A stretch of DNA of 52,831 bases from a virus (taxonomy: Duplodnaviria; Caudoviricetes), in IMG/VR virus record IMGVR_UViG_3300025668_000001, positions 1 to 52,831 of that record; one strand, given 5' to 3'. Below, piece after piece: positions 1 through 46,988 of the stretch (positions are counted from its first letter, which is position 1; each line of letters begins with the position of its first letter). The notes below the pieces were generated by a model. That model did no database searches and was not told the DNA's origin. It worked only from the letters and a program-made list of their open reading frames with translations. Position numbers and translations under genes: made by a program.

Positions 1-99
1 AACTGCTTCATAATTGAAGCGGTCTTTCATCTCATCAGTGACACCTGTCATGGCCCACTTCAGTGCTTTATTGACTGCATCCAGTTCGTCTGGGTGTAT
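1..99. repeat. Terminal overlap, identical to 52733-52831 (circular assembly overlap)
   Basis: Exact 99-bp match that falls inside the polA reading frame, which continues across the join. Confidence 0.95.
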
Positions 100-2049
100 G
101 TCCACAACGATGCTGTCATGGACTGTCAGGACTAACTTAGACTTGAGTTCTAGCTCCCGAAATTTCCGAAGCGCACGAACACATGCCAGTGGTACTTGAT
201 CCGCCGTCGCAAAGCTCTGAACCGGAAAGTTAACCAACTGCGTATGGTTAGTGACTCTTCCTGACCGAGTCCGTTTAGCTCCGGGGAATGCAAACTGGCG
301 GCCAGACGGCGTTTGTACAAAGCCTCGTCTGAGTACTTGATCCCCAAGTTCTGTGTGCCATTTTTTGAGTCCTTTGTAGACATGGAAATACTCCTTGAAA
401 TATGCCTGTACATGCTCCGGCTCACCAGCGCCCATCCCTCCGTAGAGGGGGCTGAACGTCACACTCTTGGCCGCAGACCTTTGATCTTTAGTAACTTTTT
501 CGGGTTCTATCTGGTGTATGATAGCCGCAGTCTGGCTGTGTACATCCTTACCATTCAGAATATCCTCGATGATCTGAGGATCTCGAGACAACTCCCCAGC
601 AACACGAAATTCTAATCCGCTGAAATCCCATTCCCCAACGCTACCGCCGGGGAACCGGCTCACAATCGCCTTACGAACCTCGAACTTGTTGCCCTTGGGT
701 AGGTTCTGGAAGTTTGGGTTAGTGGACGACAGACGGCCTGTGGCGGTCACTGTCTGATTAAAGCTCGAGTGCAGTAGGCCAGAGGGTCTAGTCCACAGTC
801 TGATGCCCTTAACGAAGCTGTCGAGGTATGTGCTTATGGCATTAAGTCGACTGGTCTTCTCAAGGAATTCTACAGCAATCAGGTTGTCTTTGAACTTGGC
901 CTGTTGGATCAGCTTCTTTACTGTGACCTTGTCGGTCTTGAAGCCGTTGATAGAGGCATCCGCTGCGGACGTAGGGTTTAGTTTCAGACCTGCCACTCGG
1001 CTAGTAGGCACATATAGAGCGCCTTCACCCTGACACACAGGGCACTTGGTTAGCTGCTTAAACGGGTGCCCATCCTTACGGATCTTCTGGATCTTACCCT
1101 TGCCATCACACTCGATGCAGTGATGGGCTACGGTACGATATATCTTCTGGGTGGTCTCACGGACCCGGCGACTAAACTGTGAGGCATTGAGGCGAGGTGG
1201 GTACAAGGGCTTACCTCTGTGATCCACGCCGATGTTCCAAGCCTGACGATGTTCTTCACGGTCTTTAACCTGACGGCTATAAACCACCCGAGACATATCT
1301 ATCCCTGAGTTGAGGTTGATTGGGCTGTCACCCATCACCTCTACAACTATCTCATCCAGACGCTTCTCTAATTGATCCTTCTCTGTCTGATATAGTAGGC
1401 CCACCTCATCCAGAGTATCGAGATCTATCTTGATGCCATTGCCTTCGATCTCCAGAAGGAACTCCAACATATCCATCGTAAGATCCATGACCTTACCTAG
1501 AGAGGACAGTTCTTCGGTGGCAAGCTCGGACTGTTGTTGGGAGTATATCTCCGCACAGGCGATAACATCCGCCTCGGCATACTCGTGTACAGTGGCTAGT
1601 GGCATAGCCTCGAAGCCGGTACCGGACTTGAATAACTCATCAACTAGGTCAGACTTCTTGCGAGTTACATCCCGTCTTTCGGCTGTAGCTTTAAGCGACA
1701 ATTCGGTACGTTGGCCACGGGCTAATAGATACTCGGCTACCATAGTACAGTATATACGATCTGGTATACGGAAGCCCATCTCGAGCAGCCAGAAGGCATC
1801 GAACTTAGCGTTGTGGCACACCAGTACGTCAGCCCAATCCAGAGCCTCTTGCATATCGTGCCGGGAGTTAGGGATCTCACACTCGTTATGGAAGAAGACT
1901 GAATACTCTACATTCAGAGGAGTGACGCCACCCTTGGCCCAGTAACCTGATACCAGCTTATTCTCTGGGTGCTTGGGTGAGTTGTCTTTCTTATCGCCAA
2001 TCTTCTTTACTGTAGTCTCGAGATCGAGGAACAGAACATTATTCGACAT
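1..2049 (-). CDS. polA: DNA polymerase family A with DnaJ-like zinc-finger insertion (main part; wraps to 52664, ~705 aa). Absent from the ORF track
   Basis: Manual translation from ATG 2049: MSNNVLFLDLETT (Exo I), CIECDGKG and CPVCQGEG (1119-1021), motif A DFSGLEFR, motif B KSVTFSPLYG, motif C VHDSIV. Confidence 0.95.
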   Translation of the reverse strand, partial: MSNNVLFLDLETTVKKIGDKKDNSPKHPENKLVSGYWAKGGVTPLNVEYSVFFHNECEIPNSRHDMQEALDWADVLVCHNAKFDAFWLLEMGFRIPDRIYCTMVAEYLLARGQRTELSLKATAERRDVTRKKSDLVDELFKSGTGFEAMPLATVHEYAEADVIACAEIYSQQQSELATEELSSLGKVMDLTMDMLEFLLEIEGNGIKIDLDTLDEVGLLYQTEKDQLEKRLDEIVVEVMGDSPINLNSGIDMSRVVYSRQVKDREEHRQAWNIGVDHRGKPLYPPRLNASQFSRRVRETTQKIYRTVAHHCIECDGKGKIQKIRKDGHPFKQLTKCPVCQGEGALYVPTSRVAGLKLNPTSAADASINGFKTDKVTVKKLIQQAKFKDNLIAVEFLEKTSRLNAISTYLDSFVKGIRLWTRPSGLLHSSFNQTVTATGRLSSTNPNFQNLPKGNKFEVRKAIVSRFPGGSVGEWDFSGLEFRVAGELSRDPQIIEDILNGKDVHSQTAAIIHQIEPEKVTKDQRSAAKSVTFSPLYGGMGAGEPEHVQAYFKEYFHVYKGLKKWHTELGDQVLRRGFVQTPSGRQFAFPGAKRTRSGRVTNHTQLVNFPVQSFATADQVPLACVRALRKFRELELKSKLVLTVHDSIVVDIHPDELDAVNKALKWAMTGVTDEMKDRFNYEAV

Positions 2050-3259
2050 AGCGGGACACCTCTGGCTCGATGTTGCAGATGATTGTTCCATGCCAGCCGG
2101 ACAGCTTGTTCTTAGAGATGGTAACAAACCGGGTATGGTCTGGCTCGTTAGTCTCCATCTCTGCGTTGTGCCTACCCAGACCGAGAATGAGATCGCTTTC
2201 TGCGGCCTTCCCGATCTTCGAACCTTCCATCATTGTGAATGATAGACGAGACTTCTTCTCGGCGTCCGCCGAGGCTTGGGACACCGCAATCACTGCACAG
2301 TCGTGCCGCTTGGCCACCTCTCTCAGGCGACGATACAACTCCCTCAGACGCTCGTGTCCGGCATTATACTGGCCCTCGATCTGGATCTTGTCCGCTTGAT
2401 CTAAGATCAGGACATCGACGGCCTCGGTCTCACACTTGGCCTCAATTTGGGCCAGCGTCCAATCCTGTACATCGAACATCTCAATCTGGTTTTCGATGTC
2501 AGTGAACTTCTGGCGGCAGAGGTTGGGGTTCTCTTTAATCTGGTGCTTGTCCATTCCTGAGTAGGCTTGCATAGCCCGGTACATTGTACGGCTGGTCCGC
2601 TCCTCGTTACCGAGGTAAAGAACCTTGGCCCCTTGCGAACAGAAGCCCCCGGGGGCGCAGCACAGACTGATCACAAAGGCAGTCTTACCAGTGTTTGGGG
2701 TAGCGAATACAATCCCAAACTCCGCTGGGCCTATGCCATAGCATACCTCTTTGATCGTAGAGATGTTAAATGCCCAGCGAGACTCATCACCCGACTCGGC
2801 CATAAGCTCGAAGATATCTTTAGTGGTTGGGGTACCGAAGTCATCTGGCGTGAAGCCATCCTTGTTGTTCTCCATCTTATTACGAAGAACATCGAACAGA
2901 TCGAAGTTACCTTCATTGATCTGTACCCCAAGGTTGGCTATTTCCAAGCCTTCTGACTTGCGCCACATATCTGCTATGATGTCTGAGGCTATATCGTCTG
3001 ACATAGGGTCAGTGTTAGCCACAGCCGTGACCATATCCTTTATTATAGCTTTGTCAGAGGATGTAGCTACTGGGTGGTGGACATCATACAGAGCCATTAG
3101 CTCTCTGGGTGTGATGTCATGGTCATACTTTTCATGTGCTGATGTGAGGATCTTATATAGTTCTCTGGCATCATCTCCAAATAACTCGGCCTTCAAACGG
3201 CTCTTGTTCTCTCTGTAAAACTGGCTCGATAGTAAGTTTCTTATCACTGCGTGGTCCAA
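2039..3259 (-). CDS. Replicative DNA helicase (SF4, DnaB/RecA-like)
   Basis: Walker A ATPNTGKT, Walker B LILDQAD, VSQA and ISKNK motifs; TTG start with AAGGA upstream. Confidence 0.9.
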   Translation of the reverse strand: MDHAVIRNLLSSQFYRENKSRLKAELFGDDARELYKILTSAHEKYDHDITPRELMALYDVHHPVATSSDKAIIKDMVTAVANTDPMSDDIASDIIADMWRKSEGLEIANLGVQINEGNFDLFDVLRNKMENNKDGFTPDDFGTPTTKDIFELMAESGDESRWAFNISTIKEVCYGIGPAEFGIVFATPNTGKTAFVISLCCAPGGFCSQGAKVLYLGNEERTSRTMYRAMQAYSGMDKHQIKENPNLCRQKFTDIENQIEMFDVQDWTLAQIEAKCETEAVDVLILDQADKIQIEGQYNAGHERLRELYRRLREVAKRHDCAVIAVSQASADAEKKSRLSFTMMEGSKIGKAAESDLILGLGRHNAEMETNEPDHTRFVTISKNKLSGWHGTIICNIEPEVSRYVE

Positions 3260-7969: not shown

Positions 7970-8000
7970 TTGACGTATATTGGTCCTCTGCTAGTATCAT
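7970..8000 (+). promoter_or_regulatory. Sigma70-like promoter, divergent from int
   Basis: TTGACG, 16-bp spacer ending in TGC, then TAGTAT. Confidence 0.55.
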
Positions 8001-8082
8001 AGGTGCGAAAGTGTTTTCGCATCCTCCCTGTGAGTATTTATACTCTAACTCTAGCCCCTAGACTTCGGTCTGGGGGTTTTTT
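8001..8082 (+). ncRNA. Candidate sRNA with an anti-SD TCCTCCCT segment
   Basis: Promoter upstream, two hairpins, terminator GCCCCTAGAC-TTCG-GTCTGGGGGT plus T run, no ORF. Confidence 0.5.
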
Positions 8083-8096
8083 AGTGGATGGGCCAT

Positions 8097-8120
8097 AAAA
8101 AAAGGCCTCCGAAGAGGCCT
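8097..8120 (-). terminator. Rho-independent terminator
   Basis: AGGCCTC-TTCG-GAGGCCT followed by a T run on the minus strand. Confidence 0.85.
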
Positions 8121-8131
8121 CAATTCAATCT

Positions 8132-8424
8132 GACTGGCACGTCAAACATTAACTGCTACTAGTGACTCTAGCTATAGTAGGGAATCCTTCGTCATATCCA
8201 TCATCTACTGCCTTTGTGGTGAATATTGTGTCCGAATCTAATTGCAGGACTACTTGATCTGTTCCTGTTTCGTTTGCTGCCTCTGAAGCACTTATCAGCG
8301 CATTGCCTAACTCTTGCGCCATATTCTTTTGTAGTATCATACTTCATTACCTCTTGCTCTTGGTGACTATCGTATTGATACTTTAATTCTCAAAAGACTG
8401 GCACGTCAAGCATTAACTGCTACT
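8132..8424. repeat. 29-bp direct repeat pair (8132-8160 and 8396-8424)
   Basis: GACTGGCACGTCAA(A/G)CATTAACTGCTACT with one mismatch. Confidence 0.9.
8149..8340 (-). CDS. Hypothetical protein (63 aa) bracketed by the direct repeats
   Basis: ORF with GAGG SD. Confidence 0.7.
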   Translation of the reverse strand: MILQKNMAQELGNALISASEAANETGTDQVVLQLDSDTIFTTKAVDDGYDEGFPTIARVTSSS

Positions 8425-8633
8425 CATAAAATGGCATAGCCAAATTTTGCTCAGTGCATAGTTATCCACATCCTCGGCTCCCGGCCATCCACAATCAGAT
8501 CGACGCCGCACCGCCGCACGAAATCGTTTTATAAGATGACGAACAAATAATTCGACACCCTATCGACACTTTGTTATGTGTCGAGCCGGGGCCGAGTGGC
8601 TCTGCTTAAATCTAACTCATGGAGACTGACCAA

Positions 8634-8948
8634 ATGAACACCGAAAAAATCGACATTGGCGAACTGGCCAACAATCTGAGCAACAACCAAATCTGTGATT
8701 TGCTGGGACGAGTAGGGGATCGCATCAACATTTTTTATGGGCTGCACAATATGTGCTGCCTGTCATCTGATTTTGCTAACGCATCGATGAACGGCCCGGT
8801 CATCCAGATAAATTGCGAGACCGCATATTTGGATGATCTGAGTGAGCATGAGTTTTTCGCTTATGCTGTGGCCAAGGGTGGCGGGAATACAGAAGGCCAG
8901 CACGAAGGCTGCAACCACGAAAACGAGGGGGACGCATCCGATGGCTGA
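8634..8948 (+). CDS. Hypothetical putative early protein (104 aa)
   Basis: ATG follows the shared leader GGAGACTGACCAA. Confidence 0.75.
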   Translation: MNTEKIDIGELANNLSNNQICDLLGRVGDRINIFYGLHNMCCLSSDFANASMNGPVIQINCETAYLDDLSEHEFFAYAVAKGGGNTEGQHEGCNHENEGDASDG

Positions 8949-9228
8949 TAATTCCCTACCTGATGAAATGGCAATTTTGCTCATCCATGCCGCCACCAAA
9001 TCGGACGGCTGCCCGGTTCCCTTCCCTACTATCTCGAGGCCACAGGCCGGGGATCGAAAGCAGCGCACCCCTGCCGAGCTAGACAAGGCCGCCGAGGGGC
9101 TTCTGCGCCGGGGCTATTTATCCCGCCGGGTGACCACTAACCGGCAGAAGGTGTGGCGCACCGTCCGAGGGGTGGGTGATTGCACCCTCGAGATCACCGA
9201 GTTGGGCCGAGCGGCCATCCGCTGGTGA
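8941..9228 (+). CDS. Hypothetical protein, winged-helix-like (resembles the N-terminal region of DUF3489 proteins)
   Basis: GLLRRGYL...WR...LEITELGRAAI pattern; GAGGGGG SD. Confidence 0.55.
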   Translation: MADNSLPDEMAILLIHAATKSDGCPVPFPTISRPQAGDRKQRTPAELDKAAEGLLRRGYLSRRVTTNRQKVWRTVRGVGDCTLEITELGRAAIRW

Positions 9229-9307
9229 TGGGGCCGGTCTACTCCCTTCTTGGGTTTTTCACATTCTGGGGTCTGCTTTTCTATTGGCTGGCCAGTTAAA
9301 AATAAGA

Positions 9308-9330
9308 GCCGCCCTCCGGGGCGGTTTTTT
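9308..9330 (+). terminator. Rho-independent terminator
   Basis: GCCGCCC-TCCG-GGGCGGT followed by a T run. Confidence 0.8.
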
Positions 9331-9625
9331 CTTGACACCCCTCAGAGCCATTTTCCGGCCCTCTGAGTGGGGGGTTATCGGCCCGGGCACTACATATCAA
9401 AAAAACCCGTTCCCTGTATTCAGGGCCAATAATGTCTTTTTAGAGGTGTATTATGGCCCGTTTTGTACTGTATTTTTTCAGCCCTATATATAGTGACCAT
9501 TTAAGTTCCCAAGATGGGGAATTCTTTGTCACCTGATAAAGGGCTTGCAAATCACATTAGTTGAATGCTAAGGGTGGGCATGGCCGGAGGCCTGTCAAAT
9601 TTTTATCTAACTTGGAGACTGACCA

Positions 9626-10612
9626 ATGAACACTTACACAAACCTTTCGCACCTCTCACCTGAAATCATTTCTCTTGCACAGCGTTTGCATGAGCGCCAA
9701 CAGGCCGAGCAGCCCAGCCCAGCAATGAAGCGCCTGTTTCCTGCTCTGGATAAAACCGGGTTCACCGCCGAGGCTGTCGAGCTATTCCATGAAATGAACG
9801 GCACAGAAAACAACTACGGCGAATTCGCCGGGGTTCCTGAGAACGTGGGCCGCCTGATCCGCCGCACCGATACCAACCAGCCTTTGGGTGTGGTGGGTGA
9901 ACGCTACGCAATCGCACAGAATGGTGATCTGGCCGCTAAACTGGCCGAGGGCTGCGAGGCTGCACTTCCTACCCGGGCGCTGCAAAACATCGAACTGCGG
10001 GAAAGCATCAGCCGCAACGGGCGGTTCAGCCGCTTCGAATATTCTTTTCCTGAACTGGGCGCAGACATCCGCCAGCTAACAGGCCGCAGCACTTCCCTCA
10101 AATTCCGGGTTGCGGTGGTCAATGGATTTTCAGGCACGAGTATCCGTGCGACGGCAGGCGCAATCGATTGGTATTGCGACAATGGCATGACGTTTGGAGA
10201 GTTCGAAACCTCTGTTTTCCGCCATACGTCCGGCTTTAACCCAAACAAGGTAAAGCAGTTTGTGACGCTCGAGGCCGAGCGGTTCAAAGAGCGTGTGAGC
10301 ATCTGGCAGCGTTGGGCCTTGAATGAGATCAACCCATCCGAGGCCGAGCTTTGCTTAGAGGAAGCCGGGATGGCTGGCCGCACAATCAAGCGTGTAATGG
10401 AGCAGCTAGACCTCGAGGCGCAAGAACGTGGAATGACAACGTGGGCCGTATATTCAGCGTTGACCTACCGCTCGAGCCACAACAGCGAACGGTTTGGCGT
10501 CCGCAATTCCAACAATATAGACAATGTGGCCGAGGTGTTGGATCGCCGTGAGCGTGAGGTGGGCCAGATCATAAGTCATCCGGCAATGGCACGGATCGGC
10601 ATGGCCGCCTAA
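9626..10612 (+). CDS. DUF932-family protein
   Basis: R-TDTNQPLGVVGERY..QN, VNGFSG and CDNGM...RHT pattern typical of DUF932. Confidence 0.75.
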   Translation: MNTYTNLSHLSPEIISLAQRLHERQQAEQPSPAMKRLFPALDKTGFTAEAVELFHEMNGTENNYGEFAGVPENVGRLIRRTDTNQPLGVVGERYAIAQNGDLAAKLAEGCEAALPTRALQNIELRESISRNGRFSRFEYSFPELGADIRQLTGRSTSLKFRVAVVNGFSGTSIRATAGAIDWYCDNGMTFGEFETSVFRHTSGFNPNKVKQFVTLEAERFKERVSIWQRWALNEINPSEAELCLEEAGMAGRTIKRVMEQLDLEAQERGMTTWAVYSALTYRSSHNSERFGVRNSNNIDNVAEVLDRREREVGQIISHPAMARIGMAA

Positions 10613-10613
10613 A

Positions 10614-10691
10614 GTCGAAACGCCCGGTTCATCGCCGGGCGTCTGCCGGGAAGGCTCCACACAATGTGGCCCGGTACTGATGAGACAAGCC
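10614..10691 (+). ncRNA. Hammerhead ribozyme, type II (copy 1), predicted cleavage after C10643
   Basis: GTC-GAAA-[CGCCCGG/CCGGGCG]-TC-[TGCCGGG/CCCGGTA]-CTGATGA-GAC; complete catalytic core; tail AGCC can pair with bulge GGCT. Confidence 0.92.
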
Positions 10692-10713
10692 CCCTAACTT
10701 GGAGACTGACCAA

Positions 10714-11259
10714 ATGAACACTCAAACCAAAATCACCCTGACAGGTTCAACACCCGCCGAGACTGTTTCCGGCCCTAAGTGGGTTGCCACTAAGACCCGC
10801 ACCGCTTGGGCGCATGGTGCTGTGATCGCAGAGAGCCGCCGACAGGGCCGCACCTTGCAGACGCTGGCTGAGGAGTATGGTGTGAGCATTGGCACAATTG
10901 ATCGGATCGCCGAGGCGCAGCCGCAGCCGCTGGCCCATGATCGGAGGGCATTGTTGAACGCCAAGACATTGCTGGACGCTGTACAGGCTGCCCGTGATGC
11001 CCGGAATGATATGGCCGCCCAGTTGCTCGAGGCGCAGCACGATTTGGCCAATGCGAAGCTGGGCGAGGCGTCCGCCATTGCACGGCTCAACGATCCGAGC
11101 GTGGCTAACAAGTGGAAGGCCGAGGCGCACCAAGAATATTTGCGCCGGGATGAGGCCGAGCGTGACCGGGCGGCAGCGGAGGCACAGATCGAAATGATGG
11201 CCGAGCGGCTGGCAGAATGTCGGGGCCGGGGTTTCTGGGCACGGGTATTCAATCGCTAA
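10714..11259 (+). CDS. HTH + coiled-coil protein (181 aa)
   Basis: TLQTLAEEYGVSIGTIDRI HTH, Ala-rich coil, C-terminal GFWARVF. Confidence 0.7.
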   Translation: MNTQTKITLTGSTPAETVSGPKWVATKTRTAWAHGAVIAESRRQGRTLQTLAEEYGVSIGTIDRIAEAQPQPLAHDRRALLNAKTLLDAVQAARDARNDMAAQLLEAQHDLANAKLGEASAIARLNDPSVANKWKAEAHQEYLRRDEAERDRAAAEAQIEMMAERLAECRGRGFWARVFNR

Positions 11260-11333
11260 GTCGAAACCGGGGCGCTGCCCCGGTCTGCGGGATAGGCTGC
11301 ACACAACGTGCTCCCGTACTGATGAGACAAGCC
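11260..11333 (+). ncRNA. Hammerhead ribozyme, type II (copy 2), predicted cleavage after C11285
   Basis: GTC-GAAA-[CCGGGGC/GCCCCGG]-TC-[TGCGGGA/TCCCGTA]-CTGATGA-GAC-AAGCC; stems covary with copy 1. Confidence 0.92.
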
Positions 11334-11355
11334 GCTAACTTGGAGACTGACCACA

Positions 11356-11691
11356 ATGAAACTTTTGACCAAAGCAAACCGCACGAAGCTCGAGGCAAAC
11401 GCCCGGAAGACTGAGATCGAAGGCGAAGACGATCACCGCCCGGTGGTTAAACTGTTTGACCCCTGCGGCGCTGCCACTTGGCTGTTGACCGAGATTGAGG
11501 GCGACATTGCCTTTGGCCTCTGTGATCTGGGCATGGGTTCGCCGGAGCTTGGCAGCGTATCGATCACCGAGCTTGAGGCCATCAAGGGGCCGCTGGGGAT
11601 CGGTATTGAGCGGGACCAATACTTTGAGGCTGAGATGACGATCTCAGAATATGCCGAGGCCGCCCGTGCCTCTGGCTCGATTGCAGCGTAA
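11356..11691 (+). CDS. DUF2958-family protein
   Basis: PVVKLFDPCGAATWLLTE, AFGLCDLGMGSPELGSV and IERD motifs. Confidence 0.85.
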   Translation: MKLLTKANRTKLEANARKTEIEGEDDHRPVVKLFDPCGAATWLLTEIEGDIAFGLCDLGMGSPELGSVSITELEAIKGPLGIGIERDQYFEAEMTISEYAEAARASGSIAA

Positions 11692-11704
11692 GGGGGGCGA
11701 GATC

Positions 11705-12199
11705 ATGGGATTGGATATGTACCTATCAGGCGATAAATACTTCGTGCCAGATCATAAAACCCTACAGGCTGAGTATGAGGCCGGGAAAGAACGCCCCGGC
11801 CCTTCAGAGGCCCGGACACTGGGCAAGCCTGTCGATGCGGATGGTGAGCACATCAGTAGCAGCCAGCACGATCTGGGGTATTGGCGCAAGTTCGCACCGC
11901 TGCACAATTACATCGTCCAGAACTTCGCCAATGGTGTGGATGAATGCCAGCAGATCGAACTAACAGAGGACGATTTGGAAAAGATCGCTGTGGCCCTGAC
12001 AGATGGTGCCCTGCCATCTAATGACGACTGCGGCGGGTTCTTTTTTGGCTCGAGTGATGTGTGGGATGAATACCGGGCCGAGGCTGCACAGCATGCCGCA
12101 AAGATCCGGGCAGCCGCCCAGTGGATCAACAGCTCCCCACTTCACCCCAGCGGATCTTGTGCACAGTGGCGCAGCGTCCACTATCAGGCGAGTTGGTGA
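11705..12199 (+). CDS. Conserved phage hypothetical protein
   Basis: MGLDMYL...GYWRK..LHNY...GFFFG...YQASW family pattern. Confidence 0.8.
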   Translation: MGLDMYLSGDKYFVPDHKTLQAEYEAGKERPGPSEARTLGKPVDADGEHISSSQHDLGYWRKFAPLHNYIVQNFANGVDECQQIELTEDDLEKIAVALTDGALPSNDDCGGFFFGSSDVWDEYRAEAAQHAAKIRAAAQWINSSPLHPSGSCAQWRSVHYQASW

Positions 12200-12200
12200 G

Positions 12201-12431
12201 ATGACCTACCAGCAACTGAGCCAATACGTTTGCAGCAAGTGCGGGTCTGATCACCTTGGCTGGGATGCTTGGGCTGATGAAAACGGCCAAGTGATCGGCG
12301 TAATGGATTTCAACCAGTGTCTAGATGCAGAGTGCGGTGCGGAAAGTACAGCCGTCTTGCGCATCGATCTGGAGACACAGGGCACCGCCGAGGCCTTGGA
12401 GCGAGTGAACGAGCAGGAGGGCGCAGCATGA
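12201..12431 (+). CDS. Small putative zinc-ribbon protein (76 aa)
   Basis: CSKC...CLDAEC. Confidence 0.65.
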   Translation: MTYQQLSQYVCSKCGSDHLGWDAWADENGQVIGVMDFNQCLDAECGAESTAVLRIDLETQGTAEALERVNEQEGAA

Positions 12432-12622
12432 GCGAGGTTCCCCTAACAGAGGCGCAGCGCCTATCGATTAAACAGGTTCACGCCCGGTTCGAAATCCTGC
12501 AACCGCTCGATCAGTTCACCGCATCCGCAAAGCCTCAACTGGGCTGGGATGATGGCTCGATCCTGATCAACGCCAAAGGGATGTGGATTGGCATTGAGGC
12601 GGACGGCAGCCGCCACAGCTAA
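12428..12622 (+). CDS. Hypothetical protein (64 aa)
   Basis: AGGAGG SD, ATGA overlap, ends WIGIEADGSRHS. Confidence 0.75.
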   Translation: MSEVPLTEAQRLSIKQVHARFEILQPLDQFTASAKPQLGWDDGSILINAKGMWIGIEADGSRHS

Positions 12623-12648
12623 CAGCCACCACCACAGAACAACATCAG

Positions 12649-12677
12649 AGGCCCGGTTAACCCCCGGGCCTTTTCTT
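12649..12677 (+). terminator. Terminator closing the early operon
   Basis: AGGCCCGG/CCGGGCCT stem followed by TTTCTT. Confidence 0.8.
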
Positions 12678-12849
12678 ATGCCTGAGAGCCACACAGAGCC
12701 ACGCACAGGGCCGTTAACAGTTACGGCATGAGGTGACACCTACCAGAGGGGCGACAAGGGCACTCAGACGGGCGCACAGAGGCTCTCAGAGATGGGCCGC
12801 CTGAGATGGCTGCACCGGGCGCAGGATCGGGACGCTGGCCGGGATCGAT

Positions 12850-12946
12850 CACCCGGGCGATGTCGTGACGGGATGCAGCAAGGCGGACACCCGGGCGATG
12901 TCGTGACGGGATGCAGCAAGGCGGACACCCGGGCGGACACCCGGGC
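12850..12946. repeat. Tandem repeat: two 38-bp units plus two short CACCCGGGC copies
   Basis: CACCCGGGCGATGTCGTGACGGGATGCAGCAAGGCGGA at 12850 and 12888; CACCCGGGC again at 12926 and 12938. Confidence 0.9.
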
Positions 12947-13462
12947 CAGAGGTGACGGGATATCGTACACCCGGCGGCCCCTCCCGCTTTCGCCTGTGAT
13001 ACGGCAACGGCTAGAGATCGGAGGCTATTTCCCCAGCCCACGAACAAACCACGGCAATCCGCCCGGGCTATATGGGGTAGGGGTCTCGCAATCCCGGGGC
13101 CGATACCTAAGAGGTAACAGGCCGAGGCCTCGAAACACTGGCCCGAGCCTCAAAGCCCAATGAAATAAGGGGCTTCCGGCCACGATCAAGCCGCTCAGAC
13201 CCCTGCCGCACCCCCCATGCGAGTGCCACCGGGGGGGTACCCGGTAGCGTATACCACTCTGACCAAATCTGGGGATTTTAGCACCGTAAATGACCCGGGT
13301 GCGGACCCGAGGAATTGGTTATGTCAAAGCACAAAGCGGTATTTCGGGGAAGATATCCGGTAAAGTGTCAATAACTCGGTTCTCTAAACGCTACTAGTAT
13401 GGGGAAATAGGGTAGGCTGACCGTCTGAGCCTTAGTTAGGGGTCAATATATGCACCTAACTG

Positions 13463-13491
13463 TTGACCTACACCCTAGACTTAGTTATTGT
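13463..13491 (+). promoter_or_regulatory. Sigma70-like promoter
   Basis: TTGACC-17bp-TATTGT. Confidence 0.65.
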
Positions 13492-13542
13492 ACCTCTATC
13501 TGGGGTAATATCCCGGGTATGCGCCAGCTAAGAGGATCTGAT

Positions 13543-13878
13543 ATGTCGGATTATGGCGTCAGCTTAGACTTAGAGGTGCCAGTTTACCTCGAACATGACC
13601 TTGAGGTGGACGATGATGGGACGCTGTACCTTAATTCGTTCCTCTACATCGGAGATAACGACGACTCGACGGAGGTTCGGATAGAATTCCAGCCTTTGGT
13701 GGAGTCGGTGGTCGATGTAGCCCGGGATTTCAACGACGGCTATAAGCAGTTGTACGGTATTGCCCATGAATTTGATCGCCACGCCGCTCGTATGCGTGAG
13801 TTAGCCGAGAAGATGGAGGATTCGGTAGTTAATATCGGAGATCTATTCGAAGTCGGAGATCTCGACGATGTGGAGTGA
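13543..13878 (+). CDS. Acidic hypothetical protein (111 aa)
   Basis: GAGGA SD before ATG 13543. Confidence 0.75.
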   Translation: MSDYGVSLDLEVPVYLEHDLEVDDDGTLYLNSFLYIGDNDDSTEVRIEFQPLVESVVDVARDFNDGYKQLYGIAHEFDRHAARMRELAEKMEDSVVNIGDLFEVGDLDDVE

Positions 13879-14257
13879 CTCAGAGCTAGTAGATTTCTCC
13901 AAAGCAGAGATGCTTGAGGCTCATGTACGCAAGAAGCTGGCTAATAACCTAGCGGTGGCCGCTAACAAGTGCAGAGAACAAGGCCTACCGTTTAATATTA
14001 CGGCGGATGACCTCATGCCAGCGCCTCTGAAGTGTCCTGTCTTCGGATTTAAGCTCGACTGGTACAAGGATGGACGAGGCGGGGCCGACGATAGCCCTAG
14101 TATAGACCGTCTCATCCCTGAAGAGGGATATGTGCCCGGTAATGTCACGCTAATATCTCTCAAGGCCAACCGTATTAAGAACGACAGTGATCTGTCAGAG
14201 CTTCGTATGGTAGCAGACTGGGTAGAGGCCCAGATAACGGAAAAGGCCCGAGCATAA
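13868..14257 (+). CDS. HNH-like endonuclease
   Basis: CPVFG...SPSIDRLIP..GYVPGNV..IS..AN..KND. Confidence 0.75.
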   Translation: MWSDSELVDFSKAEMLEAHVRKKLANNLAVAANKCREQGLPFNITADDLMPAPLKCPVFGFKLDWYKDGRGGADDSPSIDRLIPEEGYVPGNVTLISLKANRIKNDSDLSELRMVADWVEAQITEKARA

Positions 14258-14337
14258 AGCTCGAGCCTCTCAGATACACTATCACCACCTTGTAGATGTA
14301 ACCAAGGCTAGGGTATATTTAGCCCCCCCTAACCACA
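14241..14337 (-). ncRNA. Candidate sRNA (~95 nt)
   Basis: Promoter TTGCCA-17-TACAAT (14372-14344) and terminator AGGCTCGAGC-TTTAT-GCTCGGGCCT-TTT; no ORF between them. Confidence 0.5.
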
Positions 14338-14399
14338 ATTAGGATTGTAGCACGGATTTCGTGTTTTGGCAATACTAAATCCAATACCTACACTTACCG

Positions 14400-14429
14400 T
14401 TGACCTTGTTGTGCCATTTGAGGTATAAT
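14400..14429 (+). promoter_or_regulatory. Sigma70-like promoter of the late arm
   Basis: TTGACC-18bp-TATAAT. Confidence 0.7.
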
Positions 14430-14467
14430 TATTGGGTGGCGGATACTCCATACAGTGAGTAACTTAC

Positions 14468-14725
14468 TTGTCCATCAACTTACATTACATTCGTGCAGCC
14501 ATTGAGGCTAATACAGGGGTCCGTCTCACTCTCGAGCGCACCCGGGAGTATTTAGTCGAAGAGGGTCTTATTACCCAGCGGCAAGCGGATAAAGAAGCAA
14601 TGATCTTTCGAGGCTATGGCGAGTTCTTCCAAGAAGACAACCCCTCCACCCTTATCAAGGAAGATCCTCAAGACGTTAGAGACGATCTCCGTAGAGAGAT
14701 TCGTAATTTGGAGAATTCACGATGA
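14468..14725 (+). CDS. Hypothetical protein (85 aa)
   Basis: ORF directly after the promoter, ATGA overlap with the next gene. Confidence 0.7.
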   Translation: MSINLHYIRAAIEANTGVRLTLERTREYLVEEGLITQRQADKEAMIFRGYGEFFQEDNPSTLIKEDPQDVRDDLRREIRNLENSR

Positions 14726-14922
14726 AAGTGACTAAGGCTAACTGTGGTGCGTCTGTTAAGGCAGCTATGGGCGGATATATGGAAGTAGGTAAGGGTAAGG
14801 GGTTCTCCTCCGGCGGTATGGCCGAGAAGAAGCGTACCTCCAAGGCCAAAGAGGCCGGTACCTACAAAAAGGGTGAAATGGTTGAAGCCAGCTACGGCGG
14901 CATGGCTAAGAAGAAGAAGTAA
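14722..14922 (+). CDS. Small basic protein with repeated xxxGGM motifs
   Basis: GGAG SD; Lys-rich. Confidence 0.75.
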   Translation: MKVTKANCGASVKAAMGGYMEVGKGKGFSSGGMAEKKRTSKAKEAGTYKKGEMVEASYGGMAKKKK

Positions 14923-15116
14923 TGGCTGCGTGGGTGGCCTTGGTGTATATGTGCAGCCCATTAGGGGCTTCATGTAACATGATAGGATCACCCAACCTGT
15001 TCCTCCAAAAAGAGGACTGCCGACGAGAAATGATCTCTGTAGCCAAATATTACGAGGCACAGCAATTTCTAGTACACGGCTTCTGCCACGAAGTTAAGTT
15101 AGATCATACCGCATAG
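14922..15116 (+). CDS. Hypothetical protein (64 aa, 4 Cys)
   Basis: TAATG translational coupling. Confidence 0.65.
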   Translation: MAAWVALVYMCSPLGASCNMIGSPNLFLQKEDCRREMISVAKYYEAQQFLVHGFCHEVKLDHTA

Positions 15117-15196
15117 CGGGTATTCCAATTATGCACCTACTACGCACTTAACTAGGTGCGATATAATTATCTCTGGACCAAGCAAAGGAGATAATT

Positions 15197-15346
15197 ATGG
15201 GCTGGTTAAAATCAATACACAAAGCAATTTCTGAAGCACAGATGCGCCGGGTGGCGTACTGGCAGCTACAGAACTTAACAGACAAAGATCTCAAGGACAT
15301 CGGGATAACCCGAGGCGAGATCAGAGAAGCCGCAAGAGGTATCTAA
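15197..15346 (+). CDS. DUF1127 (YjiS-like) small protein, 49 aa, not in ORF track
   Basis: MGWLKSIHKAISEAQMRRVAYWQLQNLTDKDLKDIGITRGEI...; AAGGAG SD; TATAAT at 15162. Confidence 0.85.
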   Translation: MGWLKSIHKAISEAQMRRVAYWQLQNLTDKDLKDIGITRGEIREAARGI

Positions 15347-15376
15347 TACCCGGGCTTCCACTCACGGGGCGGGAAC

Positions 15377-15838
15377 ATGATAGCAGAGCTTGCGGCGTTT
15401 AACGCTGCGTTTGGCGTCGTTAAGACAGCTATTACACACGGAAGAGATATAGCATCCTGCGCCAAGTCTATCGGGGACATGATAGGGGCGCAGGAATCTC
15501 TTAGGGCACGAGGCGAAAAGAAGAAGAACAGTATTTGGTACTCTCTAGCGGGTAAGGATACCAACGACTTTGAAGAGTTTATGGCCCTCGAGCAAATTAA
15601 GGAGCAACGCAAAGAACTCCTACAGGCTCTCCAGCTACTAGGCCGCCCGGGCCTTAAAGACGACTACCTTAGGTTTGAGGCGGAAGCCAGACGGCAGCGA
15701 CGGACAGACGCCGCAGAGGCGGAGGCCCGAGCCTCTAAGATAATAGAGTGGGGCGTTGGTATACTGGCAGTCCTCACAGCTATTGGTCTTATGGGGTATG
15801 GTCTATTCATCCTCGGTAGGTCTCAAGGTAAATGGTGA
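15377..15838 (+). CDS. Hypothetical membrane-anchored protein
   Basis: Coiled-coil-like body with a C-terminal hydrophobic helix. Confidence 0.8.
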   Translation: MIAELAAFNAAFGVVKTAITHGRDIASCAKSIGDMIGAQESLRARGEKKKNSIWYSLAGKDTNDFEEFMALEQIKEQRKELLQALQLLGRPGLKDDYLRFEAEARRQRRTDAAEAEARASKIIEWGVGILAVLTAIGLMGYGLFILGRSQGKW

Positions 15839-16002
15839 TCTGGCCTTTAGTGGCAGTGGGATACGCAATGGTATTCTTCAACGCCCAGCCTCCTTCCACA
15901 TTCGTGAAGGTCTGCAAATACCAAAACCCCAACAATCAGTTTGCGACGGAGACCCATTGGGTTTGGCCAGAGCAACACTGCCCACCCGGAATAAAGAGAT
16001 AG
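15832..16002 (+). CDS. Small hypothetical protein (56 aa), not in ORF track
   Basis: MVIWPLVAVGYAMVFF...VCKY...HCPPGIKR fills the gap between neighbours. Confidence 0.55.
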   Translation: MVIWPLVAVGYAMVFFNAQPPSTFVKVCKYQNPNNQFATETHWVWPEQHCPPGIKR

Positions 16003-46300: not shown

Positions 46301-46918
46301 GCGGCATTTATTGATGACTTAGCCAGCCGGTTATTTACCAACAAGCCAATGGCAATCTCCACCAAGGACACTTCAAAAAATTCTATGCAAGTTTCGCAGT
46401 CACAGCTTGTTGGGATTCTAAGTGACAGATCAAGCCCAACCCTAAAGACACTAAATATACTTTTCGCAGATGACCCCGACAGGGCAGCGCAGATCGTAAG
46501 TATGCTGGAGATCCAAGAGTTAATTGCTGGATCTAAGAATTTAAGAGGTGACCTAAAGGGTTCAAGCACGGCAATAGACAGCAAGATTACCTATGACAAA
46601 GATCTTACTAAACTTATGGACCGTATTATCACGCTTCGATTTGGCGTTCTAAATACAACCGCCACGGTTACACGAAACTTAGTTGGGGCACTAACTGCCG
46701 GTTACAAGGGTTCCGTACAGGAAGCAGCGGAACAGACAATCAGATTCATAGCGGCTGAACCTCTAGAATTTGATCGTGTCTTGAAGTTAGTAGCTGAAGG
46801 TAAGGACGCTGATGCAATGCAGATTATGACTTACTGGGCCTCTCGAGGGGCGCTAGGTGGGGCCAAAGTTCGTGGATCTACAGACGAACAAACCCGGGAA
46901 GCACTACCCGTAGAATAG
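43379..46918 (+). CDS. Putative internal virion protein (1179 aa)
   Basis: Large terminal structural ORF, Ala/Gly-rich helical. Confidence 0.65.
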   Translation: MMEPEVTVESLLKMAEETGDLSTGGESPSIEDLLEMARKSGDMEKPDENPLFTADQYYAPPSLLQTMGITSIDEDDPIYRNLMTNPDFREAEPSERRRMFRIAVDDANQALYERQGTEADVGPIADVLGDGTNPRFQMGVDADGQEQKYVVPAPSSRGADMIFGETGGNVLRSITGGVMQAGRMIAGLPEAIADQVGDDEEDNAVNTTRQNFPLAPPENQYDAMGQEITSMIVGGIGGAGLVSNLSKVLGLTPKMAEWTSKALAKLKGKSPAEIADAARVMSQILIAGTGANLGASATTPEETKPLFGDEIVSSLGISPEDNRFLANFSDNVAFSTGLTILGRLAVAGGRAIKKVSQGALAANKNFRDRDIGLVILSGLDPNLVGAPAEIIAQRARIMGEVLIKNKEFTSELLSNKTIPLDSLTALRAGVDEYVDRAYSFQKSLMGTKEWDKFRSDLAINIVSEMNSLRVSRASAREIITKEGDMAAGMADAFTGTADELAGAASDGLTRPGVDLAAEQLGRPVIDAVEDATEKLSGATATRDLVGQQLEVAASRNAVTDALLDARRGNALGSDQTMRALLEKLSGPDLYNSWQRSSSAYKDAFKNLPDDIPLPVEEFVSLVEASFPDPKMWPNLIDQVTLTETVEDPLKTLLALVTPKADVGTAGMKSSASPGTLTVETYEEMVQRLTDQGTSFKQVYTELRPALELRIRALRAQKLDTNAAPLIALKRGIDAIAEGIGDPAFIDAKTKYMEHAETFLNTQPLRAYDTAVKDIVENAPGPRTGIPKGQPDAYKAGLDALKQSVDEDFTPYAEAFIRALNQGADQSLNPELSEAYIGLAMNALSRSLEAGQTVTSRSIRNATQPFVDQLKRIRGGVYERWASVVQDLEALEAGLITADQAVANLAREKAGVLSNATKDVAGKFVFDLPGVPKIKDNPQSVFKQIYRSADSPDITRRLLEAADSQGNPMVRQGMQAAFIDDLASRLFTNKPMAISTKDTSKNSMQVSQSQLVGILSDRSSPTLKTLNILFADDPDRAAQIVSMLEIQELIAGSKNLRGDLKGSSTAIDSKITYDKDLTKLMDRIITLRFGVLNTTATVTRNLVGALTAGYKGSVQEAAEQTIRFIAAEPLEFDRVLKLVAEGKDADAMQIMTYWASRGALGGAKVRGSTDEQTREALPVE

Positions 46919-46953: not shown

Positions 46954-46988
46954 CTATCTAACTTGAAAAGTGACCAAACCTTTCAAGT
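46916..46988 (-). ncRNA. Candidate trans-acting antisense sRNA against the early-gene leaders
   Basis: Promoter TTGACC-17-TATAAC (47020-46992); 5' hairpin containing UUUGGUCACUUUUCAAGUUAGAU; GAAA-loop terminator. Confidence 0.65.

What the first reader, a model, noticed from the sequence alone, without database searches (positions are those of the whole stretch)
10614..11333. Two type II hammerhead ribozymes punctuating the early operon
Seen: both copies have the full CUGAUGA/GAAA core, a GUC cleavage triplet and the G10.1-C11.1 pair. They share an architecture: stem I with an AGGCU bulge and a 4-bp cap hairpin, plus a 3' AAGCC tail able to form a pseudoknot. Stem sequences differ by compensatory changes, which points to selection on structure. 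Each copy begins 0-1 nt after a stop codon and ends just before the shared RBS leader. Established: hammerhead cleavage leaves 5'-OH and 2',3'-cyclic phosphate ends, and hammerheads are known from phage intergenic regions. Inference: protein-free processing of the polycistronic early mRNA, analogous to RNase III processing in T7, giving 5'-OH structured ends that resist 5'-monophosphate-dependent decay.
Basis: partly seen in the sequence, partly recalled or inferred. Interest (0 to 1): 0.88.

Follow-up and report, generated by a model that had tools for sequence, protein, structure and literature searches.

The report
Two hammerhead ribozymes between roseophage genes
Two small self-cutting RNA motifs sit between the first three genes of an operon in a marine roseobacter phage, where they most likely cut the long message into single-gene pieces; they are real and well conserved, but this arrangement has been known in phages since 2011.

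Summary
Both stretches match Rfam Hammerhead_II: 10613-10695 at 38.8 bits (cut-off 37) and 11259-11337 at 35.1 bits, just below it. Each has an intact core, a GUC site (cleavage after C10643 and C11285), three helices and a 4-bp loop-I/3'-tail pseudoknot.

The window is a complete CRP-3-like (HMO-2011-type) temperate roseophage. Relatives carry hammerheads at the same junctions:
- 14 of 16 internal junctions of this operon have one, against 0 of 8 promoter-proximal genes.
- On the 13 copies in the alignment, 99% of cells are paired and 11 of 16 pairs change on both sides.

The most likely function is protein-free cutting of the polycistronic mRNA into pieces capped by hairpins. No RNA data could test this. 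"Early" and "5'-OH stabilises" remain unshown.

The kind is known: the type II pseudoknot and hammerheads flanking single phage genes were described in 2011 (PMC3088659). This scan has also noted it in at least 51 other genomes.

New here:
- It is unreported for roseophages, including cultured CRP-3 and CRP-212.
- A private bulge-plus-cap stem I is shared by both copies.
- Ribozyme halves behave as cassette linkers when gene order is permuted.

Verdict: a solid new member of a known kind, of moderate to low interest.

The parts
9538..9550 (+). Conserved promoter-like motif AAAGKGCTTGYWA (-35-like) that opens the operon
   Evidence: The regex is found about 70-85 nt upstream of the DUF932 start codon in 5 sources (window, L003, L005, CRP-3, CRP-212), exactly those in which no hammerhead precedes DUF932. 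That it is a promoter is inferred.
9577..9596 (+). GC hairpin in the predicted 5' UTR of the first gene
   Evidence: MFE fold. Hairpins of different sequence sit at the same place in L003, L005 and CRP-212. Its role as a 5' cap, analogous to stem I, is inferred.
9607..9624 (+). Leader copy 1 (CTAACTTGGAGACTGACC, holds the GGAG ribosome site), not preceded by a ribozyme
   Evidence: exact match; no hammerhead upstream.
9626..10612 (+). Gene 1, DUF932 protein (328 aa)
   Evidence: Pfam PF06067, E 1.4e-8; phrog_1221. 94% aa identity to CRP-3 gp57.
10613..10695 (+). Hammerhead ribozyme 1 (type II); predicted cleavage between C10643 and U10644
   Evidence: RF02276 at 38.8 bits, above the gathering score of 37. 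Helices parsed. The MFE fold equals the hammerhead fold.
10653..10656 (+). GGCU in the stem-I bulge of HH1, one strand of the pseudoknot
   Evidence: Complementary to AGCC 10688-10691. Formation is not testable here.
10688..10691 (+). AGCC in the 3' tail of HH1, the other strand of the pseudoknot
   Evidence: Rfam's consensus tail is AGCC.
10694..10711 (+). Leader copy 2
   Evidence: exact match.
10714..11259 (+). Gene 2 (181 aa), possibly helix-turn-helix, function unknown
   Evidence: Only a sub-threshold Sigma70_r4 hit (E 0.0035, 17.3 bits against a cut-off of 24.1). Homologs lie in all relatives but at a different position in L006 and L007.
11259..11337 (+). Hammerhead ribozyme 2 (type II); predicted cleavage between C11285 and U11286
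   Evidence: RF02276 at 35.1 bits, E 0.0018, below the gathering score. 76.8 bits with lineage model R1. Helices parsed. The MFE fold equals the hammerhead fold.
11295..11298 (+). GGCU in the stem-I bulge of HH2
   Evidence: Complementary to AGCC 11330-11333.
11330..11333 (+). AGCC in the 3' tail of HH2
11335..11352 (+). Leader copy 3
   Evidence: exact match.
11356..11691 (+). Gene 3, DUF2958 protein (111 aa)
   Evidence: Pfam PF11171, E 9.4e-42. 96% aa identity to CRP-3 gp55.

Best explanation
Both elements are active type II hammerhead ribozymes that are transcribed as part of one mRNA.

The transcript. It starts at a host-type promoter near 9540 and runs through the DUF932 gene, gene 2 and the DUF2958 gene.

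Folding and cleavage. As each ribozyme emerges from the polymerase it folds. Stems I and III are local hairpins. The 3-bp stem II and the GGCU:AGCC pseudoknot close the junction. The ribozyme then cuts after C10643 and after C11285.

The products. The message is cut into three pieces.
- Each upstream piece keeps its stop codon and ends 31 or 26 nt later, flush with the GC-rich stem III hairpin and carrying a 2',3'-cyclic phosphate.
- Each downstream piece begins with a 5'-OH base-paired at the foot of the 7-bp stem I. It then carries an identical-length 70-nt 5' UTR, made of the ribozyme remnant plus the standard 18-nt leader with GGAG.

The likely benefit. Each cistron's stability and translation would be uncoupled from its neighbours and given standard, hairpin-capped ends. 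This works like RNase III processing of T7 early mRNA, or like synthetic ribozyme insulators (both recalled).

What is shown here: motif, fold, covariation and placement at junctions. What is inferred: cleavage itself, and any effect on stability or translation.
For: 1. Family match: RF02276 at 38.8 and 35.1 bits. All core nucleotides and the three helices are present.
2. The MFE and centroid folds of both stretches are exactly the hammerhead junction.
3. Conservation: 13 copies in the window plus 6 of 7 relatives' loci, and a 14th in L044.
4. Covariation on the 13 aligned copies: 99% of cells paired, 11 of 16 pairs changed on both sides, 0 of 500 shuffles as high, and slid controls 23-53% paired.
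5. Pseudoknot: at least 4 bp in 13 of 13 copies, with three sequence classes that change on both strands (GGCU:AGCC, GGCC:GGCC, GGGC:GCCC).
6. Placement: 14 of 16 internal junctions carry a hammerhead against 0 of 8 promoter-proximal genes. When gene order is permuted (L006/G003, L007) the junctions still have one.
7. Generic arrangement: in 39 hammerheads from 29 unrelated viral contigs, 25 start within -1 to +7 nt of the stop codon of an ORF of at least 50 aa (7.2% for random placement). A start codon follows in 28, mostly 22-39 nt after stem II.
8. Published activity of the kind: type II pseudoknot hammerheads cleave in vitro (PMC3088659, passages). Three type II hammerheads near phage genes cleave in vivo in Desulfovibrio (PMC8782182, abstract and passages).
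9. Within the window, the stretch from the cleavage site to the start codon is 86% identical between the copies, against 65% upstream of the site. That is the predicted 5' UTR.
Against: - There is no direct evidence of cleavage for these or any CRP-3-type copies.
- HH2 is below Rfam's gathering score.
- Thermodynamic z-scores are modest (-2.3 and -1.7). The reverse strands fold about as well (-0.9 and -2.0), so stability alone does not discriminate.
- Predicted accessibility of the ribosome site is the same before and after cleavage (0.55-0.56 against 0.60 for gene 2; 0.63-0.71 against 0.66 for gene 3). Cleavage is therefore not predicted to unmask translation.
- L003, whose DUF932 protein is 85% identical, has no hammerhead at either junction. 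The ribozymes are dispensable for the operon.
- The only understood bacterial self-cleaving ribozyme, glmS, lowers expression after cleavage (PMC6765202). A 5'-OH is not necessarily protective.
- Many of the 14 copies are closely related, and L006 and L007 are identical within the ribozyme. The counts overstate the number of independent events.
Confidence: 0.7

Rival explanations
1. The ribozymes cleave, but the effect is negative. The 5'-OH products are degraded faster, as after glmS cleavage, or translation of downstream cistrons is decoupled and reduced. The hammerheads would then grade expression downward along the operon instead of stabilising each piece.
For: [quoted passage not shown] Alphaproteobacteria are recalled to have RNase J (not tested here). 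L003 does without ribozymes.
Against: Both cleavage products end flush with stable GC hairpins. Stem I starts at the very first nucleotide and stem III ends one base before the cut. By established knowledge of end-dependent RNases (recalled), this is the layout expected to block them. The promoter-proximal transcript also carries a 5' hairpin before the same leader, which suggests that hairpin capping is the selected feature.
Confidence: 0.12
2. The main reason these elements persist is genomic. The conserved cores and the standard leader would serve as homologous linkers, letting phages swap and reorder gene cassettes. Cleavage would be secondary or incidental.
For: - Gene order is permuted in L006/G003 and L007 (gene-2 homolog, then DUF932, then DUF2958), with hammerheads kept at the junctions.
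- The stem III type follows the upstream gene. The ACGCYCGGG type follows DUF932 in the window, CRP-3 and G003. The ACCGGGGC type follows gene 2 in the window, L006 and L007.
- Between the window and CRP-3, genes and cores are 82-89% identical but stem I is only 42-43% identical at both junctions.
Against: Linkers for recombination would not need intact catalytic cores, compensatory changes in every helix or a covarying pseudoknot. L003 keeps the leaders without ribozymes. The sample is small: 8 phages and one permutation event. This reading is compatible with the best explanation and does not exclude it.
Confidence: 0.1
3. Double cleavage releases gene 2 as a 642-nt RNA (10644-11285). Its 5'-OH and 2',3'-cyclic-phosphate ends are then joined, by the reverse hammerhead reaction or by a host RtcB-type ligase, into a circular mRNA. 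Alternatively the flanking pieces are spliced.
For: In a type II hammerhead the two halves on either side of the cut are self-contained hairpins. Both copies share the same stem II (GUC/GAC). The ends of the excised RNA could therefore rebuild a hybrid hammerhead. Perreault et al. raised this possibility (PMC3088659).
Against: Perreault et al. report that they could not detect circular or spliced products for clustered hammerheads (data not shown in the paper). Nothing in the sequence requires it. Gene 2 has its own stop codon and ribosome site.
Confidence: 0.05
4. The motifs are inactive relics or chance look-alikes: plain intergenic hairpins that happen to carry the core words.
For: HH2 is below Rfam's cut-off. 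Thermodynamic z-scores are unremarkable. L003 has a plain hairpin at the same junction.
Against: Full cores are present in 14 of 14 copies. 11 of 16 pairs have double changes and 99% of cells are paired. Lineage model scores are 54-96 bits. Two hits in 52.8 kb at E 2e-4 and 1.8e-3 both fall at gene junctions and both precede the same leader.
Confidence: 0.03

Closest known systems
Type II hammerhead ribozymes with a loop-I/3'-tail pseudoknot (Rfam RF02276; Perreault et al. 2011, PMC3088659)
   Same: Open stem II of 3 bp, hairpin-closed stems I and III, a consensus core, a GUC site, and a pseudoknot of at least 4 bp between loop I and the nucleotides just after stem II. The tail is AGCC, as in Rfam's consensus.
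   Different: The pseudoknot bases lie in a 6-nt bulge on the 5' side of stem I, and a further 4-5 bp hairpin caps the stem. In the others they lie in a plain terminal loop. None of the 39 hammerheads from 29 other viral contigs, nor the 12 copies in relatives, has this form. A pattern search for it found 6 contigs, none of them a hammerhead. The insertion costs HH2 the Rfam cut-off.
Clustered hammerheads flanking single genes or short gene blocks in prophages (Perreault et al. 2011, Figure 3 legend and text)
   Same: Several hammerheads on the coding strand flank individual genes in a temperate phage. The same processing hypothesis applies, and the gene content between the ribozymes varies.
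   Different: - The host lineage is an HMO-2011-type marine roseophage with cultured members, CRP-3 and CRP-212. Their papers have 0 occurrences of 'hammerhead' or 'ribozyme'.
- A comparative rule can be stated here: internal junctions have one, promoter-proximal genes do not.
- Every cistron has an identical leader and a 70-nt predicted 5' UTR.
RNase III processing of phage T7 early polycistronic mRNA (recalled, not checked in a paper here)
   Same: It works alike. Intergenic structured sites cut a long phage transcript into single-gene mRNAs that end in hairpins.
   Different: This is not the same family. T7 uses a host protein enzyme on a double-stranded site and leaves 5'-phosphate and 3'-OH ends. 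Here the RNA cuts itself and would leave 5'-OH and 2',3'-cyclic-phosphate ends.
Synthetic ribozyme insulators such as RiboJ (recalled; only a search listing was seen)
   Same: It works alike. A hammerhead upstream of a ribosome site removes variable upstream RNA, so each gene gets a defined, hairpin-started 5' UTR.
   Different: RiboJ is an engineered part derived from a plant satellite RNA, placed after promoters. Here the element is natural, type II, and sits between cistrons.

Membership tests
Hammerhead ribozyme, type II (RF02276) | Conserved catalytic core: C3-U4-G5-A6-N7-G8-A9 and G12-A13-A14 | tested here: met
   CUGAUGA at 10677-83 and 11319-25. GAA at 10617-19 and 11263-65. The core is intact in 14 of 14 lineage copies.
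Hammerhead ribozyme, type II (RF02276) | Cleavage triplet N-U-H, with an A15.1-U16.1 pair closing stem III | tested here: met
   GUC at 10641-43 and 11283-85. A10620-U10642 and A11266-U11284.
Hammerhead ribozyme, type II (RF02276) | Three helices around the core, with stems I and III closed by loops and stem II open (type II permutation), and N10.1-N11.1 paired | tested here: met
   Rfam structure alignment, helix parse, and MFE and centroid folds. G10684-C10616 and G11326-C11262.
Hammerhead ribozyme, type II (RF02276) | Helices supported by compensatory change among homologs | tested here: met
   Alignment A4 of 13 copies: 99% of cells paired, 11 of 16 pairs changed on both sides, 0 of 500 shuffles as high, slid controls 23-53% paired. 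Caveat: the alignment was fitted to the model and the copies are related.
Hammerhead ribozyme, type II (RF02276) | Pseudoknot between loop I and the 3' tail after stem II (common in the family, not universal) | tested here: met
   GGCU:AGCC in both copies. At least 4 bp at offset 0-2 in 13 of 13 copies, with three covarying classes. The cross-class control was confounded: 49 of 126 non-cognate pairs also match, because the classes overlap. Tertiary formation is not testable here.
Hammerhead ribozyme, type II (RF02276) | Rfam curated score cut-off of 37 bits (an operational filter, not a structural feature), HH1 | tested here: met
   38.8 bits.
Hammerhead ribozyme, type II (RF02276) | Rfam curated score cut-off of 37 bits (an operational filter, not a structural feature), HH2 | tested here: not met
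   35.1 bits, E 0.0018. The 16-nt insertion in loop I is shown in the alignment; that it accounts for the shortfall is my inference. All structural features above are met, and lineage model R1 gives 76.8 bits.
Hammerhead ribozyme, type II (RF02276) | Mg2+-dependent self-cleavage giving 2',3'-cyclic-phosphate and 5'-OH ends | not testable with these tools
   The only RNA run found held four short, low-depth contigs and gave no end information.
Clustered phage/prophage hammerheads flanking genes (Perreault 2011) | Two or more hammerheads close together on the coding strand, flanking a single gene or a short block, in a phage or prophage | tested here: met
   Two copies 646 nt apart flank gene 2 on the + strand. 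The record is a complete phage genome with an integrase, related to the temperate phage CRP-3.

The most novel reading that the evidence does not exclude
The ribozymes and the standard leader may form a natural cassette system.
- The 5' half of each hammerhead (stem III) belongs to the upstream gene, as its 3' cap.
- The 3' half plus the leader forms an interchangeable 5' UTR of exactly 70 nt, homogenised within the genome.
- Because the cut separates the two halves, genes could be reordered or swapped between phages at these linkers without changing each gene's expression context.
This would be a natural counterpart of engineered ribozyme insulators, and a driver of mosaicism in this abundant marine phage group.
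Probability: 0.2. Interest if true: 0.55.

Novelty: new member of a known kind. Interest (0 to 1): 0.3.

Why it matters
The biological role of bacterial and phage hammerheads is still described as largely elusive. The idea that they process polycistronic mRNAs still needs concrete work (PMC6765202).

This operon offers a compact test case in a globally distributed marine phage group:
- There are two cultured relatives, CRP-3 and CRP-212, with ribozymes at the same junctions.
- L003 is a natural variant without ribozymes.
- L006 and L007 are natural variants with permuted gene order.

It also shows that these phage genomes, annotated only with 'hypothetical protein' CDS at this locus, carry unannotated functional RNAs. 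It does not change what is known about the ribozyme class itself.

Tried and rejected
1. RNA evidence. One marine metatranscriptome run held 9% of the sampled words. Laid on 9400-12200, it gave 4 contigs of 151-186 nt at depth 2-3, covering 10747-10905, 11193-11262, 11795-11979 and 12062-12200. There were no joints and no end information at 10643/10644 or 11285/11286. Two further runs gave nothing. This says nothing for or against cleavage or transcription.
2. RBS unmasking by cleavage. Predicted accessibility is unchanged, so I rejected this mechanism.
3. A cryptic third ribozyme before gene 1, or degenerate copies elsewhere. Model R1 with filters off over the window and 7 loci found only the 13 copies. 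The other four hits were reverse-strand stem III palindromes and one 11-bit hit in L003.
4. The bulge-plus-cap stem I elsewhere. The pattern scan found 6 viral contigs, and 0 of 6 are hammerheads.
5. Prophage relatives in bacterial genomes. The DUF932 protein search gave 293 pattern matches and 0 relatives. A 17-mer of core plus tail gave 48 contigs, of which only 1 holds a complete type II hammerhead by my parser. By my rough estimate that is about the number of matches expected by chance in a collection of that size, so nothing follows from it about hosts or breadth.
6. Subgroup I relatives. CRP-1 and CRP-2 have no RF02276 match at E <= 1.
7. Consensus promoter and terminator scan of 8000-16000. 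The counts are at shuffle level (8 against 6.4, and 10 against 7.7), and it did not pick out the operon promoter.
8. Function of the operon genes. Only DUF932 and DUF2958 are recognisable. No paper holds both names.
9. The upstream element CTGGACACC seen in relatives occurs in the window at chance level.
10. The cross-class pseudoknot control was confounded by overlapping class definitions.
11. Weak Rfam hits (ryfA, Atu_C8 and others, E >= 0.2) are terminator hairpins or noise.
Full report
OBSERVATION

The stretch 10613-11337 holds two matches to Rfam Hammerhead_II (RF02276). The first is 10613-10695 at 38.8 bits, above the gathering score of 37 (E 2e-4). The second is 11259-11337 at 35.1 bits, just below it (E 1.8e-3). 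The other 8 matches of the permissive scan have E >= 0.2 and are noise or terminator hairpins.

Read by hand and with a helix parser, both copies have:
- CUGAUGA and GAAA cores;
- A15.1-U16.1 and a GUC site, with C17 at 10643 and 11285;
- a 3-bp open stem II (GUC/GAC, so G10.1-C11.1);
- a GC-rich stem III hairpin of 8-9 bp by the parser (which counts G-U pairs);
- a 7-bp stem I that carries a 6-nt bulge (AAGGCU or UAGGCU) and a 4-5 bp capping hairpin;
- a 3' tail AAGCC whose AGCC is complementary to the GGCU of the bulge.

The ribozymes begin 1 and 0 nt after the stop codons, which end at 10612 and 11259. They are followed by an identical 18-nt leader holding GGAG. That leader has 3 exact copies in the window, at 9607, 10694 and 11335, where 0.04 are expected.

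The MFE and centroid folds of both stretches reproduce the three-way junction exactly. The shuffle z-scores are modest (-2.3 and -1.7), and the reverse strands fold about as well.

In stem I and the cap, the two copies differ at 8 positions. Six of these make 3 compensated pairs, 2 are unpaired, and none is uncompensated (strings).

WHAT THE WINDOW IS

The window is a whole virus record of 52,831 bp with direct terminal repeats, estimated 100% complete.

The operon region is 84% identical to Roseobacter phage CRP-3 and 68% identical to CRP-212. CRP-3 is an HMO-2011-type podovirus that integrates at a tRNA-Met gene (PMC6918029, abstract and passages).

Gene layout:
- The - strand carries DNA polymerase, helicase, primase, thymidylate synthase and integrase on one side, and ribonucleotide reductase and a Cas4-like nuclease on the other.
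- The + strand runs from small genes, through the ribozyme operon, to endonuclease VII, terminase, portal and the structural genes.

A GC hairpin at 9309-9324 is followed by six T on the + strand. An AT-rich region follows, and then the operon:
- gene 1, 9626-10612 (DUF932);
- HH1;
- gene 2, 10714-11259 (only a sub-threshold helix-turn-helix-like hit);
- HH2;
- gene 3, 11356-11691 (DUF2958).

Nothing in the sequence shows that this operon is 'early'.

RELATIVES

Five viral contigs encoding DUF932 relatives (L003-L007) and the two cultured phages (L008, L009) were scanned.
- Rfam found 8 Hammerhead_II matches in these 7 loci, 5 of them above the cut-off.
- A helix parser and a lineage covariance model (R1, built on alignment A2 with a structure I derived) agree on 13 copies in the window plus 6 of the 7 loci, at 54-96 bits. 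With filters off, nothing else turned up in 89 kb.
- A 14th copy lies at the other end of L006's record.
- L003, and the 28.7-kb record it comes from (about 54% complete), have none.
- CRP-1 and CRP-2, of HMO-2011 subgroup I, have none.

On the model-fitted alignment of the 13 copies:
- 99% of cells are paired;
- 11 of 16 pairs show changes on both sides;
- 0 of 500 shuffles reach any of the five measures;
- sliding the partners drops pairing to 23-53%.

The caveats are that the alignment is fitted to the model and the sequences are related; L006 and L007 are identical within the ribozyme.

All 13 copies have at least 4 bp of complementarity between loop I and the first bases after stem II. 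There are three sequence classes that differ on both strands: GGCU:AGCC, GGCC:GGCC and GGGC:GCCC. My cross-class control was confounded by overlapping classes, with 49 of 126 non-cognate pairs also matching.

PLACEMENT RULE

A promoter-like motif (AAAGKGCTTGYWA) lies 70-85 nt upstream of DUF932 in the window, L003, L005, CRP-3 and CRP-212. It is followed by a GC hairpin of varying sequence and then the leader. These are exactly the sources with no hammerhead before DUF932.

In L004, L006 and L007 another gene precedes DUF932. That gene carries the same hairpin-plus-leader 5' region, and a hammerhead sits at the junction with DUF932.

Counting from the promoter-proximal gene to the DUF2958 gene, 14 of 16 internal junctions carry a hammerhead:
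- window 2 of 2;
- CRP-3 2 of 2;
- CRP-212 2 of 2;
- L005 2 of 2;
- L004 3 of 3;
- L006/G003 2 of 2;
- L007 1 of 1 seen;
- L003 0 of 2.

None of the 8 promoter-proximal genes has one. For L004, L006 and L007, calling the first gene promoter-proximal rests on similarity of the 5' region and not on the motif regex. I did not tabulate junctions downstream of gene 3. The models find no ribozyme there.

MODULES

In L006/G003 and L007 the gene before DUF932 is a homolog of the window's gene 2 (48-56% identity). DUF932 is followed directly by the DUF2958 gene (86% identity), so the gene order is permuted.

The stem III type follows the upstream gene:
- The ACGCYCGGG type follows DUF932 in the window, CRP-3 and G003.
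- The ACCGGGGC type follows gene 2 in the window, L006 and L007.

Between the window and CRP-3, the genes, promoter, HH1 5' half and cores are 82-89% identical, but stem I is 42-43% identical at both junctions.

Within the window, the two copies are 86% identical from the cut to the start codon, against 65% before the cut. Both predicted 5' UTRs are exactly 70 nt long (coordinates).

The bulge-plus-cap stem I was found nowhere else:
- It is absent from the 12 copies in relatives.
- It is absent from the 39 hammerheads of 29 other viral contigs.
- 0 of 6 pattern matches are hammerheads.

HOW COMMON THE ARRANGEMENT IS

An exact 17-mer of core plus tail occurs in 32 other viral contigs. Of these, 29 hold complete type II hammerheads, 39 in all.

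Of those 39:
- 25 start within -1 to +7 nt of the stop codon of an ORF of at least 50 aa (mode 0);
- 28 are followed by an ORF start 12-49 nt after stem II;
- 19 have both.

For 3,900 random placements the figures are 7.2%, 44.6% and 3.3%. The tight stop-ribozyme-leader-start arrangement is therefore generic for this class in phages.

MECHANISM

The best-supported reading is co-transcriptional self-cleavage that cuts the operon mRNA into three pieces.

From the sequence:
- Upstream pieces keep their stop codon and end 31 or 26 nt later, flush with stem III.
- Downstream pieces start base-paired at the foot of stem I and carry the standard leader.

From established knowledge (recalled): hairpins flush with RNA ends hinder end-dependent RNases.

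Predicted accessibility of the ribosome site does not change on cleavage. Uncoupling and end-capping therefore fit better than unmasking.

The direction of the effect is not settled. The one understood bacterial case, glmS, lowers expression (PMC6765202). The Collins et al. paper is not held, so the RNase J1 detail is recalled.

No RNA data could test cleavage (see Tried and rejected).

WHAT IS KNOWN

Perreault et al. 2011 (PMC3088659, abstract and passages) described:
- natural type II hammerheads;
- the loop-I/3'-tail pseudoknot and its importance for fast cleavage;
- hammerheads in phage intergenic regions;
- multiple hammerheads flanking single genes in prophages;
- the inference that long phage transcripts are processed into single-gene mRNAs.

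They also raised circular or spliced products and did not detect them.

A 2019 review still calls for work to define the purpose (PMC6765202, passages). Three type II hammerheads near phage genes cleave in vivo in Desulfovibrio (PMC8782182, abstract and passages). A 2026 paper on ribozymes in RNA viruses set aside hits in DNA bacteriophages as already described (PMC13725137, passages).

The CRP-3 and HMO-2011-type papers have 0 occurrences of 'hammerhead' or 'ribozyme' in their main text. No paper in the library holds both 'hammerhead' and 'roseophage'. The GenBank records list only hypothetical-protein CDS at this locus. Supplements were closed, so I could not check whether Perreault's alignments already include such marine sequences.

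This scan has noted the same kind of arrangement in at least 51 other genomes.

VERDICT

These are real, conserved and almost certainly active type II hammerheads, a new member of a known kind. It gains comparative support here but no direct proof, and 'early' and 'stabilising' are unshown.

The points worth keeping:
- the availability of cultured relatives;
- the natural ribozyme-free and permuted variants;
- the private stem I form;
- the hint that ribozyme halves and leaders act as cassette linkers.

Interest 0.3.

Noticed in passing
window 9309-9330: A GC hairpin (CCGCCC-UCCG-GGGCGG) is followed by six T on the + strand and has a T-rich stretch on the other strand. It is probably a bidirectional terminator that closes the small upstream genes before the ribozyme operon. 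The weak Rfam 'ryfA' hit (E 0.2) rests on this hairpin.
   Followed up: partly
L003 3985-4032 and 4540-4636: L003 is a close relative whose DUF932 protein is 85% identical. It has a plain GC hairpin plus leader at the first junction, and at the second junction a GC hairpin at the end of gene 2 followed by a short spacer and the leader. It has no ribozyme anywhere in its 28.7-kb record. It is a natural ribozyme-free variant of the operon.
   Followed up: partly
L006 2299-2990 with L044 (G003), and L007 2382-2989: Gene order is permuted relative to the window: gene-2 homolog, hammerhead, DUF932, hammerhead, DUF2958. The stem III type stays with the upstream gene.
   Followed up: yes
window 46958-46975: A fourth, degenerate copy of the leader (3 mismatches, GGAG lost) lies just after the 1179-aa ORF that ends at 46918. 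No ribozyme is nearby.
   Followed up: no
L004 1150-1214, L005 1820-1883, L009 210-270, L006 1400-1461, L007 1480-1543: Another conserved upstream element (CTGGACACC, about 30 nt, a GC hairpin, then the leader) precedes a further leader-bearing gene in the relatives. The window has no clear copy; the 9-mer occurs there at chance level.
   Followed up: partly
window 4-2127 (- strand): The DNA polymerase has weak hits to 'anti-termination protein Q-like' families at residues 332-379. This probably reflects the zinc-binding DnaJ-like insertion that the CRP-3 paper describes for HMO-2011-type polymerases.
   Followed up: no
window 21389-25267: A 1292-aa ORF has an endolysin-like N-terminal domain (residues about 30-190). 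It is likely an internal virion or ejection protein with a cell-wall hydrolase domain.
   Followed up: no
L004 3968-3972, L005, L009 and the j2 junctions: In several relatives the upstream stop codon is TAG, and its G is the first base of stem II (GUC). The stop codon and the ribozyme overlap by one base.
   Followed up: partly
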